IMG/VR virus record: IMGVR_UViG_2648501392_000022
Location: 1-21,150 of that record
Reading direction: 5' to 3' (one strand)
DNA from: a virus
Lineage: Duplodnaviria > Heunggongvirae > Uroviricota > Caudoviricetes
Length of the DNA stretch: 21,150 nucleotides
Shown: positions 12,001 to 18,000 of the stretch, in pieces
How the letters are laid out: each line of letters begins with the position of its first letter
Numbering within the stretch: the stretch's first letter is position 1
Program-made: the position numbers

Positions 12001-15000
12001 GTGATCATGGCGATTTCAATGTGGCTCAGGAGCATCCGGAATGAAAATCGAATACCAGGACGCCGCAGGAGGTGAATCAATGAGCTGGCCTGATGCAATC
12101 GTAACTCTGGGGGTGGTATTCGCAGTAGCGTTTGTTGTGTTCTCAATTTGTCGATGGGGATAACCACATGTTCGCTTTGATTCAACGCGGTCAGATATAC
12201 ACGGACAGAGCCGGATACCCCGTGGTGATTACTCGCATCACTGAGCACTCAGTGTTCTTTCGACGGATGGACGGACGATCCGGGCGGGTACGCATTGGTG
12301 AGTTAAACTGCCTGTTCGAACATATTGACCACCAGGAGTACCGCAAAATTCTCGCGGACACTGAGCAGGAAAAGCACCTGAAAAAATTACGAGCCATAAA
12401 AAGGAAGTAAAGAATGAATAAAGCATTTGAACAATGGGTCCACCAGCGTTACGGCAATCGCTATGACCTGACGCGAGATGTTGACGGCTTCTACTGTCGT
12501 GAAGTTGTGAAGCGAATGTTTGACGTGTGGTGCCACTGCCGTGGGCTGAGTGTTATGTGAGGTGATGTATGGGGCTGGATTGCGTGCCTATATCAACCTA
12601 CTGCCGCGACGCGGGAGAAACGGTTGATGCCGTTAACAAACGGATACAAAGAGGAATATGGAAAGAAGGGGTTCATGTATTAAAAGTCGACGGAGTTAAA
12701 GAACGCTGGGTCGACTTAATAGAGGTTTCAAAATGGGCAAGAAAGAACAAGGATTATTATCTCTGCCAAGAGGAGTAACTATTCGTAAGCATAAAACTGC
12801 TTCAACACTAGTTATCACTTTCACATATAAAGGGGTTCTTTGCAGGGAGCCCCTGTCTCGGCTTGAGGCAAATACACGTGGTATTAAATATGCTGAGCGC
12901 CTGCTAGGGGAGATACAAAATCAGATCGCCAGCGGAACGTTTGAATATGCGAAATATTTCCCCAGTTCCAAAAAACTGGAGTTATTCGGTGTAGTAAAGA
13001 AAACCAAAAATATTAAGTCCTATCTTGATGAATACCTGAAAATTTGCATGAACCGCAATCTGTCGCCGTCAACCATTGGCGGTTACGAAAAATGTCTATC
13101 AGCACTATCAGAACTACATAAACTACATGTAACAGAATTGACGCCTGCGGTACTAAAAAATTGGATAGCCAGCCGAAAAACTAAGCTGAAAACAATCAGG
13201 AATAACCTGTCATTTCTGCGCAGCGCCATTGATGAGGCTGTAACTGATGGCCTGTTGACTATTAACCCGGTAACTCTTGTCAGCGCCAGCCGGTATCACG
13301 TGGTCGACAGTAAACCGAACGCCGACGATTACGAAGTTGATCCGTTTGCGCCTGCGGAAACCAGTGCCATATATCAGCACTGCAAGTATCAGGAATGGCA
13401 GAATCTGTTCCGCTTCGCCTTCAATACAGGGCTACGCAGCTCTGAGCTATGCGCATTACGTTGGACCGATATCGACTTTATAGGTAATACAGCGCACATA
13501 CAGGCGGCCAGTGTCGTAGGGGTACTTAAAGGCACCAAGACAAAAGCCGGTACCCGTAAGGTGGAGCTGAACAGTGAGGCGCTGGCGGCCCTGCAGGCGC
13601 AGAAGCAATACACCTTTATGAAAAGTGAGTTCATATTCAGCGATCCGAAAACGGGAGATCCCTGGACGAACGCCGACGCTATCCGTAAAAAAGCATGGGT
13701 GCCGACCCTGAAAAAAGCTGGTGTGCGCTACCGTAACCCGTACCAGACGCGCCACACATTCGCCACCAGACACATTAGCCAGGGTGTAAACCTTTTCTGG
13801 CTTGCCGGGCAGATGGGGCATAAGGGGCCGGAAATGCTGTTCCGCAATTACGGTAAATACCTGGCTGAATACGACGGGAAAACCGCAATGGAATCTGGAA
13901 TGAAGAAGTGATTTGAAGAAAAAACCCGGCAAATGCCGGGTCTTTTTGATGGTTATTCTGTCGCGCCACCTATCGAAACATAATCATGAAATTGATCGTC
14001 AATGAGTCGGTCCTTACAGATAACATGTACAATGTGACGACAACAGTTTTCATCATCATACGCACGACCCCAGCGAACAATCTCATCTACAGACAGATCA
14101 TTCGCACTCCATGGCAAAGTACCTGAAACTCCACGCGCACCTGGACCAAGTATGTCCATAAATTTCTTCGTGCGTGAATTGTAGATCCGTACCTCGGCAA
14201 TTCGAATGATGCTACTAGCCCAAAGAGCACCACCGGCAATACTTTGAATGTTATCGCAGATGAGAAACTCATGCTTTCGCGCAAGCATTTTATAGATCTC
14301 ACGCGCCAAACCTGCTGATTGGAAATCCTGTGCGATAACAGCGCTTTTCACTTGCTTTCCGGTCATCATCTGACCGTTCTCTTCGATAAAATTAAAGTCG
14401 TTGAACTGTATACGACCTATTCTTATCGTTTTGTTATCGTCTACCATATCAAGACCCAAGAGGGTATTGACCAGATCCTGCATTGGAACCTTCGAATCAA
14501 GAAGGTCACTGCCATAGTCTAAAAAAAAGTCGTCGGTGGAACATCCCAGTTGATACACATCCAAGTAGTACTGAAACTCACCAGAACTGACAATGTACTC
14601 ATCAGCCCTCAGTAAGCCAGCCTCGGCAGTGAAAAAATAGAATGACTCAATAAGACGTTTTTCGCCAAATGGCGTAATGTTCAAGTCCTTGTTATATGAA
14701 GGTATTAACGCAGGAGCCATTCAGCAACCTTTTAATGGTAGTTAATTTCCCTGTAGTTCTTCTGCATGTATAGAGCAATTGCCGCTTCAATTTTCTTCAG
14801 CAGATTACTGCTTACATACTGAGGATACTGATCTGCTGGCTTCACAACATAGCGCAATTTTTCTTTGTTCATGGCGATCTCAGCGAACGGGATCACGTCA
14901 CCGTCACGAACCTCATTGTTCAATGTCACAATAAACAGCTGACGTGCCGGGGAGACACGATCACTCAGTCTTCTCACGAAGAACTCGTTTGCTGTGTTTG

Positions 15001-18000
15001 AGTCAACAAAAGAACTGACGAGTTGAGTCCGACGCTCAATCGTCTGTATCGATCTTCTCGCTACTGTTCTCATGCTAGTCTCCTCAACACTTCACTGGCT
15101 GTGCAGTGAAGGTACAAAAAGCCACTGATGATAACAGCGTCATCAGTGGCCCTTGATGGTGATAACCGCAGTTACCTAAATAGTATGATATTACCTTACG
15201 GGTAATTCTTCAACGATTGCTCTGAATTGAATAGTCTTGAAGTGCTATGAACAGCACAAAACAGCGCTAATCACCGCCCCAGTGGCGGCTAAACACTTCA
15301 AAATGTTGGACAGAATCAGGACGTTAGAGGTACTACAATATGCACGTAAAATGCACGTGAGGTATTTTAAATTAGAAAAATCATTAATATTCAATTGGTT
15401 AAGAATTTTTCGGATACGGGTTCAACTCCCGCCAGCTCCACCAATCATGATTGGACGGTATAAGGACAACACCAATAAAAACAGGAAGTTAGCAGTCTCA
15501 GCAGGACACCGACCAGACGGTGAGGAGACATAAAAGAATACGCAAAGGAGCCGCGGCTCCTGGTGACATGAAAGCCCACAGATGTGGGCTTTTTCGTTGA
15601 TGGTCAGAACGACCAGTTCACACCAGCTACCCCGTTCCACGGGGATTCCACACCGGCACCATGGCTATACCCCACCCCAAGATGCCCGCTTAACGTACTG
15701 CTGAATGAGGCTTTAATACCTGCCTGGTATATTCCACGTCTGCCCGACAAATCATTGACGAAATTACCGTCACTATTCACTTTCACCCGGTTATCATCGA
15801 CAAATTCTTTGCGCACAGCCGCCTTCAGCCACGGCTCAACTTCCATACCGTTCCCCAGACGCATGTTGTAACTCAGCGTTGCACCCAGTTCACGATATAA
15901 ACTGCGGGTATCGACTGATTTCGATTCCATGCCATTGGATAAATGATATTCAGGGTTATCAGCGGTGAACCCCCGTTAACGATGCATACGGCGTCAGGTT
16001 CCAGTTACCATCGGTAAATCGCATCCCGGTTTCAATGTGACCGCCCAGCCCGTTGCTGCGATAACTGCCGTTGGCGGCTCCACCGCTGCCAACCGTGGAG
16101 CCGCGAGCTTCGGTACCTGCTAATACCAATAAATTACCGCCATTTTCCAGCAACATATTGGTCGCTAAATTGCCGGAAATGGAAAAAGTGCCGTACTGGT
16201 GAGTACCGCTGATTTCAATACCGTTAGCCGTGCTCGTCTGGAGAGCGGCACCGCTGTTCTGGACGATATCTGTCGCTTTGCCATTATCGTTAACTGTCAG
16301 CGTACCGCCTTCATTGATCTTTGTTTTTATTGCCTCTCCGTTAGCTGAAACTGTTTGTATTCCGCCGTCGTTAATCGTTGTCTCATTCGCCACCCCCTCG
16401 ACGATTTGTTCGCCGCCGGTGAGCGTCGTGCCTGTCGCAGTGGCTTTTGTTTTGACGATCTCCCGTCCGCCCGTATTGACCTGTGTTTTGTCAGAAGAGG
16501 TGTCTGACTCCACGGTTAACACGCCGCCATTTGCCAGCAGGATATTGTTCGCCGCACCCTGCTCGATGCTGAACGCGACGCCATCCGCGCGTGTTCCTGT
16601 GACCCGCGTCGCCCTGGTGGTTGCAACCAAAGCGCCCTGGCTACTCTGCTGTATCCCCGTTGCGCTGCCTTTCTCCCGCACATCGAGTGTGCCGCCGTCA
16701 TTAAGCACCGAGTTTTCAGCCAGACCGCCCTCATTAACTACCTGTGAACCGCCATTAATAATGGAACCTTCCGCTGTCCCGTTTGCCATAATTTGTTGTA
16801 GGCCAGAGACGATATCGGTATTGATCGCCTTACCATAATTCTGAACGGTTTGCGTACCGCCATTGATGTGCGTTTTATCTGTTGACCCACCATCAACAAT
16901 TTGTTCACCACTTTCAATATTTGCCTCAGTGGCTAATCCATATACCGTTTGCTTGCCACCTTTGATATTTGCTTTATCAGAAGTGGCACTGGCATATATT
17001 GTTTGGGTGCCAGCACTATTGAGTACAGTGCCAACATCTTTTCCATAAACATCCATTTTGCCGTTGGCATTAATAATCGTATCAACTGCCCGGGAACCAG
17101 TGACGACTGTTAATGAGCCAGCATTTTCCAGCACTACATTTTTAGCTTCTGAATTCCTGATGTAGAAAGCATCACCATAACTGTTGGTTCCTTAGATAAG
17201 TGTTCCGGAAGTCGTGGAAGCAATTAATGCGCCGCCGGATTGTTGCTCAACATGCTTAGCCTCACCACCGTCCTGAACCTCCAGAACGCCACCATTATTA
17301 AGTCTGGAGCTATCTGTTTTAGCCTCCTTCTGGACAATCAGCTTACCGCCAGCATCAATGGTAGTATTTTTCGCCGAGGTTTTAGCCACTACCGTCAGTT
17401 CGCCGGTATTTTCCAGCACAACATAATTAGCTTCACCTCCGGTAATAGTGAAGTGAGAGAGCTTGTTCATCCTTCGATATCAGTCCCTGCGCCCGTGTTG
17501 GCAACTAAAGCAATGCCCGTCTCCTGGTTAACCCCATGTGCAATACCGCCGGTATAGACAATCAGCGAGCCTCCGGCGCTAATATTGCTGCCAGTTGCCG
17601 TACCATCTTTCTCAACAACCTGCCGGCTCCCGGAGGATATAATTGTCGTGTCAGCTTTCCCGCCGCTCTTGATATTTTGCGTTCCGCCGTTGATATTGGT
17701 ACCCGTGGCAATACCATGATTATTAATATTCTGTGTACCACCATTGATTATGGTATTGGTCGCGTTTCCGGTAACATCCATTACCCCGCCGTTATCTATT
17801 CGGGTCGCATCAGCTTTAGCATTCGTTAAAACTGACATTGTTCCTTTATCTTTAATAATTGTCTTATTTGCCGAACCATATGCGTTTATGTCTAAATGAC
17901 CACCGTTTTCCAGCAACACATTGTCTGCCACGTGATTGTGGATGGAGAATGCACCTTCACTAATCGTACAGCTCACCGTCGTACCGTTAGTGTTTGTTTT

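What the first reader, a model, noticed from the sequence alone, without database searches (positions are those of the whole stretch)
13953..15236. Two-gene cargo operon of unrecognised proteins wedged between int and the ssrA attachment junction
Genes A (113 aa) and B (255 aa) lie antisense to int in the classic integrase-proximal cargo position, with their own promoter, a structured leader and a dedicated terminator. Neither protein matches any family I can name; B is soluble with no obvious nucleotide-binding motif. This locus is where prophages commonly carry anti-phage defence, toxin-antitoxin or lysogenic-conversion genes, so it is the best candidate here for an undescribed system.
Basis: partly seen in the sequence, partly recalled or inferred. 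Interest (0 to 1): 0.8.

Follow-up and report, generated by a model that had tools for sequence, protein, structure and literature searches.

The report
Mobile two-gene GNAT-fold prophage cargo module
Two unannotated genes between the prophage integrase and the ssrA junction form a self-contained cargo module that moves among phages and plasmids; both proteins are predicted to have acetyltransferase-like (GNAT) folds, and what they do is untested.

Summary
Window 13890-15296 is a 1.4-kb insert that a cargo-free sister prophage at the same ssrA/ypjA site lacks. On the minus strand it carries a sigma-70-like promoter, a three-hairpin leader with an intrinsic-terminator-like hairpin, gene A (113 aa), gene B (255 aa) and a terminator shared with int.

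A and B have no Pfam, NCBIfam or PADLOC match. They do belong to PHROG families 2594 and 3307, both of unknown function.

A sits directly upstream of B in every locus examined, down to about 25% identity. The pair occupies at least nine unrelated positions in temperate phages. It also occurs in SSU5-like phage-plasmids and in small Acinetobacter OXA-72 plasmids.

Both genes are under strong purifying selection. B is acidic and A is basic.

My best reading is an autonomous conflict or addiction-type module built on a GNAT enzyme with an obligate GNAT-like partner. It is not a member of the known GNAT/DUF1778 toxin-antitoxin family. It is a good experimental candidate but not a demonstrated new system.

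The parts
13890..15296 (-). Whole cargo insert (promoter, leader, A, B, terminator), delimited against a cargo-free relative
   Evidence: ETEC1749 has the same integrase family at the same ssrA/ypjA site. Its prophage matches the window up to 13889 and again from 15297, with about 28 nt in between.
15185..15213 (-). Sigma-70-like promoter: TTGAAG (15213-15208), 17-nt spacer, TATCAT (15190-15185). The spacer holds the palindrome TTACC-N5-GGTAA (15205-15191).
   Evidence: for the pattern. Searches show the promoter and a spacer palindrome recurring in diverged copies. Function is inferred.
15161..15176 (-). Palindrome / 5' hairpin GGTAAC-TGCG-GTTATC at about +1 of the predicted transcript (consensus GATAAC-N4-GTTATC)
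   Evidence: Whether it acts as a DNA operator or as an RNA 5' stem-loop is not resolved.
15116..15154 (-). Leader hairpin 2, intrinsic-terminator-like: GCCACTGATGA / TCATCAGTGGC followed by T5 (15120-15116)
   Evidence: It is conserved with U5-U8 in most core-clade copies. It lies downstream of the promoter and 38 nt upstream of the ATG.
15090..15111 (-). Leader hairpin 3 (CTTCACTG-N6-CAGTGAAG) just upstream of the Shine-Dalgarno GAGGAG (15085-15080)
   Evidence: A hairpin of different sequence sits at the same place in other clades. The close clade shows one two-sided compensatory change.
14732..15073 (-). Gene A, 113 aa, basic (pI 9.8). PHROG 2594. Predicted partial GNAT-like beta-sheet plus a long C-terminal helix.
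13953..14720 (-). Gene B, 255 aa, acidic (pI 4.8). PHROG 3307. Predicted complete GNAT fold with an N-terminal beta-hairpin and a C-terminal extension. Motif-A-like Q134-S-A-G-L-A139.
14521..14528 (-). T8 homopolymer inside B (codons about 64-67). A T7 allele frameshifts B in PhiR12 phages and two IMG/VR contigs.
13917..13948 (.). Bidirectional intrinsic terminator (stem 13924-13941, T-runs on both strands) ending both B and int
12733..13911 (+). Prophage tyrosine integrase (Arm-DNA-bind_2 plus Phage_integrase). This is context, not part of the module.
15408..15443 (+). attR: 3' end of ssrA (tmRNA), followed by ssrA-downstream/ypjA-side chromosome. This is context.
   Evidence: Sub-threshold tmRNA hit at 15352-15443, E 5e-5. 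In other E. coli genomes this stretch lies under the annotated ssrA gene.

Best explanation
**What is shown.**
- Window 13890-15296 is an autonomous, horizontally mobile accessory module of the 'moron' type.
- Its layout on the minus strand is: promoter, three-hairpin leader, A, B, terminator.
- B is a divergent member of the GNAT acyltransferase fold.
- A is an obligate partner whose predicted fold is a truncated GNAT-like sheet plus one long helix.
- The pair always travels together. It is found in temperate phages, phage-plasmids and small Acinetobacter plasmids.

**What is inferred.**
- Basic A and acidic B form a complex.
- B transfers an acyl group, most likely from acyl-CoA, onto a cellular or invading-element target.
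- A restrains or directs that activity.
- The promoter palindromes and the terminator-like hairpin in the 5' leader keep expression low or conditional in the lysogen. Antiterminated read-through from the surrounding phage operons could raise it during lytic growth.
- Because the module persists as a selfish unit on very different mobile elements, its most likely role is a conflict or addiction module. That means either toxin-antitoxin-like or abortive-infection-type defence, or element stabilisation. It would be built on a GNAT effector but would be unrelated in sequence and partner type to the known GNAT/DUF1778 toxin-antitoxin systems.

**How sure.** My confidence in the anatomy, fold assignment and mobility is about 0.85. 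My confidence in the conflict-module role is about 0.35-0.4.

For: **Obligate pairing.** A lies directly upstream of B, separated by 9-35 nt or overlapping it, in every locus that has upstream DNA. This holds at 100% down to about 25% identity. No orphan A or B was seen.

**Mobility.** The pair occupies these positions:
- int/att (the window);
- Q/holin on the opposite strand;
- between Q and the lysis genes, same strand;
- the nin region;
- between tail fibre and int;
- after a P22-like tailspike and Oac;
- inside a siphovirus tail module;
- inside a myovirus baseplate module;
- between the lysis genes and parA of SSU5-type phage-plasmids;
- a pdif-flanked region of 9.9-kb Acinetobacter OXA-72 plasmids.

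B relatives are on 375 PLSDB plasmids.

**Presence/absence.** Sister prophages at the same site have the slot empty or filled with other cargo.

**Selection and charge.** dN/dS is 0.02-0.18. B has pI 4.8 and A has pI 9.3-9.8, across both families.

**Regulation.** Promoter, palindromes and three-hairpin leader are conserved.

**B is dispensable to the phage.** A T8-to-T7 frameshift disrupts B while A stays intact in phages that were isolated and propagated. That fits an accessory or toxin-like gene.
Against: **No functional data.** No toxicity, defence or activity data exist for either protein.

**Not a known system.**
- There is no hit to any PADLOC defence model.
- There is no hit to Pfam GNAT or DUF1778 models.

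**A is unlike a typical antitoxin.**
- It is well folded.
- It has no recognisable DNA-binding domain.
- At medium distances it is more conserved than B (70% versus 56% identity).

**B may not bind tRNA.** B is strongly acidic. By inference from general knowledge, this does not suit tRNA binding of the TacT/AtaT kind.

**Catalysis is uncertain.** In about a third of distant family members the key motif-A glycine is replaced by R, H, K or S. Acyl-CoA use and catalysis may therefore not be universal.

**The models have limits.**
- Both models are of only moderate confidence.
- B residues 159-166, which lie next to the presumed active site, have pLDDT below 50.
- No A+B complex prediction could be run.

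**An alternative reading of orientation.** The module is co-oriented with the flanking phage operons in most contexts. That fits a lytic-phase function equally well.
Confidence: 0.4

Rival explanations
1. Non-toxic two-subunit modifying enzyme for lysogenic or plasmid conversion. The A-B complex acylates a host protein, envelope precursor or small molecule (an antibiotic, bacteriocin or metabolite). This benefits the carrier cell, with no addiction or abortive-infection logic.
For: - GNAT fold with hits to aminoglycoside acetyltransferases, MccE, RimJ/L and NatD at similar Z.
- The module lies next to other conversion genes: an O-antigen acyltransferase in L016, and lipoprotein or membrane morons in L004-L009.
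- It is carried on Acinetobacter resistance plasmids beside blaOXA-72.
- Both proteins are well folded and strongly conserved, as expected for enzyme subunits.
Against: - There is no similarity to any curated resistance or modification family.
- The tightly attenuated leader and the promoter palindromes are more typical of dose-sensitive modules.
- B is knocked out in a propagating phage lineage with no obvious compensation, although that is also compatible with a dispensable conversion gene.
Confidence: 0.28
2. Counter-defence or host-takeover factor used by the mobile element itself, for example acetylating and inactivating a host immune or housekeeping protein as the GNAT anti-CRISPR AcrVA5 does. 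It would be expressed mainly by read-through when the element is active.
For: - The module has the same orientation as the surrounding early or late phage operons in most contexts.
- An antiterminating polymerase would ignore the leader terminator.
- In L011-L013 it lies near an Acb2/Tad1-like anti-defence gene.
- Mobile-element GNATs with anti-defence roles are known (AcrVA5; from general knowledge).
Against: - It has its own conserved sigma-70-type promoter and its own terminator, the hallmark of lysogen-expressed morons.
- In L011-L013 it is antisense to the late operon.
- In the window prophage it is transcribed inward from the attR end, with no phage operon upstream in the integrated state.
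- Its presence on small, non-phage plasmids is harder to explain by lytic takeover.
Confidence: 0.15
3. Non-catalytic GNAT-fold pair. Both proteins keep the scaffold but act as ligand sensors or binding proteins (pseudo-enzymes) in some regulatory role for the element.
For: - The motif-A glycine is not conserved across the wider B family.
- A lacks the C-terminal half of the fold and has a degenerate QYPQxA in place of motif A.
Against: - Seven polar or aromatic residues are invariant down to about 22% identity: Q123, Y143, D156, Q159, W167, Y180, W204. They cluster on the beta4-alpha3-beta5-alpha4-beta6 core, which looks like an active site.
- GNATs bind CoA largely through backbone atoms, so loss of the glycine is not disqualifying.
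Confidence: 0.1

Closest known systems
GNAT/DUF1778 type II toxin-antitoxin systems (TacAT, AtaRT, KacAT, ItaRT; reviewed in PMC9177977)
   Same: - A two-gene operon on mobile elements, with a small protein upstream and a GNAT-fold protein downstream.
- Palindromes overlap the promoter.
   Different: - A is not a ribbon-helix-helix DUF1778 protein. It has no Pfam hit, and its predicted fold is a GNAT-like sheet.
- B is 240-255 aa against about 170, with N- and C-terminal extensions.
- B is strongly acidic.
- B matches no Pfam acetyltransferase model.
- Toxicity and aminoacyl-tRNA acetylation are untested.
Phage morons (independent promoter-gene-terminator units such as lambda bor/lom or HK97 gp15; general knowledge)
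   Same: - A self-contained transcription unit.
- Present or absent between sister prophages.
- Inserted between or inside otherwise conserved phage modules, including tail gene clusters.
   Different: - It is a fixed two-gene unit with a conserved structured leader containing a terminator-like hairpin.
- It is also found on non-phage plasmids.
Enzymes built from two GNAT-like domains or subunits (for example MshD, FemX, ATE1; Hat1-type extended GNATs)
   Same: - Two GNAT-like units encoded together, one of them apparently degenerate.
   Different: - Here the two units are separate polypeptides.
- Profile comparison detects no sequence relationship between A and B.
- No complex has been shown.
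AcrVA5, a small GNAT anti-CRISPR encoded by mobile elements (general knowledge)
   Same: A mobile-element-encoded minimal GNAT used in genetic conflict.
   Different: - It is a single protein.
- It is not among the top structural hits for A or B.
- The genomic logic is different.
ToxIN-type arrangement (promoter, short RNA, terminator, effector gene; general knowledge)
   Same: A terminator sits between the promoter and the coding genes and would set a low effector dose.
   Different: - There are no tandem RNA repeats.
- B is not an endoribonuclease.
- The leader has no Rfam match.

Membership tests
GNAT acyltransferase superfamily (protein B) | Mixed alpha/beta GNAT fold (beta1-alpha1-alpha2-beta2-4-alpha3-beta5-alpha4-beta6-7) | tested here: met
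GNAT acyltransferase superfamily (protein B) | Motif A, Q/R-x-x-G-x-G/A, in the beta4-alpha3 loop (acyl-CoA pyrophosphate binding) | tested here: inconclusive
   The window protein has Q134-S-A-G137-L-A139. G137 and L138 are invariant in the core clade. In the wider family the Gly is replaced by R, H, K or S in about a third of members.
GNAT acyltransferase superfamily (protein B) | Significant match to curated sequence models (Pfam Acetyltransf_1/7/10 and others) | tested here: not met
   No Pfam or NCBIfam hit at E up to 1. The only link is indirect: the B profile finds Pfam-GNAT proteins at E 4e-5 to 2e-4 over the core.
GNAT acyltransferase superfamily (protein B) | Acyl-CoA-dependent acyl transfer | not testable with these tools
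   Needs biochemistry.
GNAT-like fold (protein A) | Structural similarity to the GNAT core | tested here: inconclusive
GNAT/DUF1778 type II toxin-antitoxin (TacAT/AtaRT) | Antitoxin with a ribbon-helix-helix DUF1778 domain | tested here: not met
   A has no Pfam hit. Its predicted structure is a beta-sheet plus a C-terminal helix, not RHH.
GNAT/DUF1778 type II toxin-antitoxin (TacAT/AtaRT) | Small upstream gene and GNAT gene in one operon | tested here: met
   A-B order and tight spacing are conserved in all loci.
GNAT/DUF1778 type II toxin-antitoxin (TacAT/AtaRT) | Toxin arrests growth by acetylating aminoacyl-tRNA and is neutralised by the partner | not testable with these tools
   Indirect only. 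B is acidic (pI 4.8), which does not favour tRNA binding. B is frameshifted while A is intact in PhiR12 phages.
Phage moron | Own promoter and terminator flanking the cargo | tested here: met
   Pattern-level promoter and terminators, conserved across diverged copies. Transcription was not measured.
Phage moron | Present/absent between related phages and found at different positions in unrelated phages | tested here: met
   Empty or alternative cargo slot in sister prophages. At least nine distinct insertion contexts.
Known anti-phage defence systems (PADLOC-DB v2) | Match to a defence-system protein model | tested here: not met
   No hit for A or B at E up to 1.
PHROG 2594 (A) and PHROG 3307 (B) | Significant full-length HMM match | tested here: met
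   A: E 8.7e-26, residues 4-109. B: E 1.4e-59, residues 1-236. Both families are labelled 'unknown function'.

The most novel reading that the evidence does not exclude
A-B is a previously undescribed two-component conflict system (toxin-antitoxin-like or abortive-infection defence). In it a full GNAT-fold enzyme (B) is controlled or targeted by a truncated GNAT-like protein (A), a partner type not seen in known GNAT toxin systems. It would be governed by a conserved attenuator leader. It is spread across temperate phages, SSU5-type phage-plasmids and Acinetobacter carbapenem-resistance plasmids.
Probability: 0.3. Interest if true: 0.75.

Novelty: new variant of a known kind. Interest (0 to 1): 0.5.

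Why it matters
- **It assigns a fold.** Two widespread 'hypothetical' phage protein families (PHROG 2594 and 3307) now have a fold-level identity. They are shown to form one obligate, mobile module.
- **It would be a new variant if it is a conflict system.** It would add a GNAT-based architecture with a GNAT-like partner instead of an RHH antitoxin.
- **It may matter clinically.** The module occurs in EPEC and STEC-type E. coli prophages, in Klebsiella, Salmonella and Enterobacter phage-plasmids, and in Acinetobacter OXA-72 plasmids. Its function could therefore affect phage therapy outcomes or plasmid persistence.
- **Natural controls are to hand.** These are the natural T7 frameshift allele of B, and sister prophages whose cargo slot is empty.

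Tried and rejected
- **Sequence libraries for A and B.** Pfam, NCBIfam and PADLOC gave nothing. PDB sequence-profile searches gave nothing meaningful.
- **A versus B.** hhalign of the A and B profiles showed no relationship. Duplication cannot be shown.
- **Further fold searches.** Foldseek of A against BFVD gave no significant hit. The afdb50 library was unavailable.
- **RNA family and consensus fold.** Rfam has no family for the leader. RNAalifold on a MAFFT alignment of 21 leaders predicted no consensus structure because the alignment is not structure-aware. I therefore relied on per-sequence folds and z-scores. A close-clade pair count was also run and gave only weak support: 58 of 500 shuffles did as well.
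- **Zinc site.** I considered a site formed by C60, C155, C227 and H229. I rejected it because these residues are not conserved in the wider family.
- **Third gene.** I considered a third gene travelling with the pair. The genes downstream of B in tail-module loci are unrelated to each other, so I rejected this.
- **Phase variation.** I considered phase variation at the T8 tract. Only one lineage carries T7 and all complete E. coli genomes checked have T8, so it remains unproven.
- **Literature.** Searches for the phages, the accessions and GNAT-based defence found nothing on this family.
- **Orphan genes.** No orphan A or B was found in the loci checked.

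
Full report
**Where the window comes from**

Window 13700-15700 is 100% identical to the E. coli E110019 chromosome. Ten of 5,426 complete E. coli genomes hold most of that query.

The region is the right end of a lambdoid prophage. The tyrosine integrase lies at 12733-13911 on the plus strand. The 3' end of ssrA lies at about 15408-15443: there is a sub-threshold tmRNA hit, and the same stretch falls under the annotated ssrA gene in other strains. Fragments of the ypjA autotransporter follow.

**Checking the observation**

B (13953-14720, 255 aa) and A (14732-15073, 113 aa) lie on the minus strand, 11 nt apart. 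Both are real genes.
- Their homologues span about 25% to 100% identity.
- dN/dS against diverged copies is 0.09-0.18 for A and 0.02-0.03 for B.
- The 113-aa start of A is supported by homologue lengths and by PHROG coverage. Some RefSeq records annotate only 81 aa (versus 57-59).

The regulatory elements upstream of A, in order of transcription, are:
- a promoter-like site, TTGAAG-17-TATCAT (15213-15185);
- a palindrome or 5' hairpin (15176-15161);
- a strong hairpin followed by a T5 run (15154-15116);
- a third hairpin (15111-15090);
- the Shine-Dalgarno GAGGAG (15085-15080).

The leader's MFE is -40 kcal/mol, z = -3.06. A bidirectional terminator (stem 13924-13941) ends both B and int.

**Limits of the insert**

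A sister prophage in ETEC1749 has the same integrase family and sits at the same ssrA/ypjA site. It matches the window up to 13889 and again from 15297, with about 28 nt in between. The cargo insert is therefore 13890-15296. Another relative carries a DUF4760 gene in the same slot.

**What the proteins are**

No Pfam, NCBIfam or PADLOC model matches either protein. PDB sequence profiles give nothing. Both do fall in PHROG families of unknown function: A in 2594 (E 9e-26) and B in 3307 (E 1e-59).

B:
- The AlphaFold2 model, built on a 29-sequence alignment, has pLDDT 77 and pTM 0.76.
- The sequence has a motif-A-like Q134-S-A-G-L-A139 after the presumed beta4 strand, and a CDNxQSxxGGxLWASS stretch around beta5/alpha4.
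- An exhaustive profile search found only 56 clusters (50% identity) among 1.84 billion representatives.
- The weakest of those hits are Pfam Acetyltransf_1 proteins matched over the same core. This is a faint sequence bridge to the superfamily.
- Across the wider family (down to about 22% identity) Q123, Y143, D156, Q159, W167, Y180 and W204 are invariant.
- The cysteines are not invariant, and the motif-A glycine is not either.

A:
- The model has pLDDT 82.
- It has only a short helix, five strands and one long C-terminal helix.
- VKPxxQYPQxA stands where motif A would be.
- I read A as a truncated, probably non-canonical GNAT-like protein.
- This is less secure than the assignment for B. 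Foldseek against viral models found nothing, and A and B profiles show no mutual similarity.

Charge: B is acidic (pI about 4.8, net charge about -12). A is basic (pI 9.3-9.8), with the charge concentrated in its invariant N-terminal half.

**Pairing and mobility**

A lies immediately upstream of B in every locus where upstream DNA is available. The two genes are separated by 9-35 nt or overlap.
- 32 IMG/VR loci, the loci retrieved from public assemblies, and SSU5.
- Klebsiella phage p4727.
- The most distant members, at 25-28% identity.
- Two further lineages that were found starting from A.

The pair occupies these positions:
- int/att (the window);
- between Q and the holin, on the opposite strand (L011-13);
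- between Q and the lysis genes, on the same strand (L063);
- the nin region (L065/66);
- between tail fibre and int (L014/15);
- after a P22-like tailspike and Oac (L016);
- inside a siphovirus tail module, at two different points (L004-6, L009/10);
- inside a Pantoea myovirus baseplate module (L007);
- between the lysis genes and parA of SSU5-type phage-plasmids (L002, L056).

B relatives are on 375 PLSDB plasmids. These include about 20 small (5-10 kb) Acinetobacter baumannii OXA-72 plasmids. There an A-like gene (hhalign probability 97%) and a B-like gene (E 1e-47) lie within a pdif-flanked accessory region.

The genes that follow B in different phages are unrelated to one another. The unit is therefore two genes.

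**The leader**

In the closest clade every stem substitution preserves pairing: eight one-sided changes, one two-sided change and one broken cell. With seven sequences this is only weak support, since 58 of 500 shuffles do as well.

The L011 group, the distant clades and SSU5 lack the canonical U-run hairpin. No Rfam family matches. RNAalifold on a sequence alignment failed.

Only 38 nt separate the U-run from the ATG, so no promoter can fit downstream of it. The hairpin is therefore part of the 5' leader. I infer an attenuator that keeps expression low or conditional.

**A natural knock-out**

The PhiR12 phages and two IMG/VR contigs carry T7 instead of T8 at 14521-14528. This frameshifts B while A stays 100% intact. 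The PhiR12 records list laboratory E. coli K-12 MG1655 or E. coli C as host. The complete E. coli genomes checked all have the intact allele. B is thus dispensable for phage propagation.

**Interpretation**

Shown:
- It is an autonomous, mobile module of promoter, leader, A, B and terminator.
- B has a GNAT fold.
- A is an obligate partner.

Inferred:
- A and B form a complex, given the complementary charge and the strict co-inheritance.
- B is an acyl-CoA-dependent transferase, given the motif and the invariant polar core.
- The module is a conflict or addiction-type element, given its persistence as a selfish unit on phages, phage-plasmids and tiny plasmids, its attenuated and palindrome-bearing promoter region, and the tolerated loss of B but not of A.

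I put this last step at about 0.35-0.4. The rivals are a non-toxic converting enzyme (0.28), a counter-defence or lytic-phase factor (0.15) and a non-catalytic scaffold pair (0.1).

It is not a member of the GNAT/DUF1778 toxin-antitoxin family. The partner is not RHH, B fails the sequence models, and B is acidic and much longer.

**Novelty and interest**

Both families were known only as PHROGs of unknown function, and every database name is 'hypothetical protein'. Literature searches found nothing on them.

The fold assignment, the GNAT-like partner, the obligate pairing, the range of insertion sites and the conserved leader are new descriptions, as far as these searches show. The kind of element is familiar: a GNAT-based accessory module on mobile elements. 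I rate it a new variant of a known kind, with interest 0.5.

Noticed in passing
window 676-928: Two Rfam sRNA matches above the gathering scores inside the prophage. AgvB (anti-GcvB sRNA) lies at 676-737 (+), 96.5 bits. STnc100 lies at 738-928 (-), 144.7 bits.
   Followed up: no
window 14521-14528: There is a T8 homopolymer in B. A T7 allele frameshifts B in five PhiR12 phage records and two IMG/VR contigs while A stays intact. It could be a lineage mutation, slippage-prone switching or a sequencing artefact.
   Followed up: partly
window 14732-15073; L001 15033-15278: RefSeq annotates gene A inconsistently. It is 81 aa (WP_001467558) in E110019 and M8 but 113 aa (WP_001261060) in other genomes. 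Homologues and the PHROG match support 113 aa.
   Followed up: yes
window 13890-13911: Homology to the cargo-free sister prophage stops 22 nt before the int stop codon. The last ~7 codons of int therefore came in with the cargo insert, or were replaced by it.
   Followed up: partly
L053 2192-3100 and L054 1691-1718: The same int-att slot holds a DUF4760 gene in strain HCP5S3_I4 and nothing in ETEC1749. It is an exchangeable cargo slot.
   Followed up: partly
window ~10950 versus L001 11247-12460: E110019 has an IS3-family element (about 1.3 kb) in the prophage that the window lacks, inferred from coordinate offsets. The window is therefore from a close relative, not from that exact assembly.
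   Followed up: no
window 15604-19000 (-): ypjA/EhaD autotransporter is broken into several ORFs. In E110019 it is annotated as a pseudogene with an internal stop, plus a separate 108-aa beta-barrel fragment.
   Followed up: no
window 15205-15191 and 15176-15161; other loci: Palindromes recur in and just after the module's promoter. Some clades have TTACC-N5-GGTAA and others ATAGCT-N2-AGCTAT. GATAAC-N4-GTTATC sits at about +1. These are operator-like sites, but neither A nor B has a recognisable DNA-binding domain.
   Followed up: partly
L057 2268-6792 (A. baumannii plasmid NZ_CP104344.1): On small OXA-72 plasmids the A-B pair lies in a 4.5-kb region bounded by pdif (XerC/D) sites. The region also holds an IS, a DnaD_N/HTH gene, two small unknown genes and an Arc-family gene. 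It may be a dif module.
   Followed up: partly
L004 8831-9190; L005 8831-9472; L009 6824-7450: Immediately downstream of A-B in tail-module insertions lie unrelated small genes. One product has a signal-peptide-like N-terminus, one looks like a lipoprotein and one like a membrane protein. This suggests hot spots that collect several accessory genes.
   Followed up: partly
L011-L013 3169-3659: An Acb2/Tad1-hairpin family (anti-defence) gene lies about 2 kb from the A-B module in the Enterobacter-type prophages.
   Followed up: no
L001 7994-8212 (window about 9006-9224): The same prophage is annotated with a ParE family toxin-like protein and an SPFH-domain protein in its early region.
   Followed up: no
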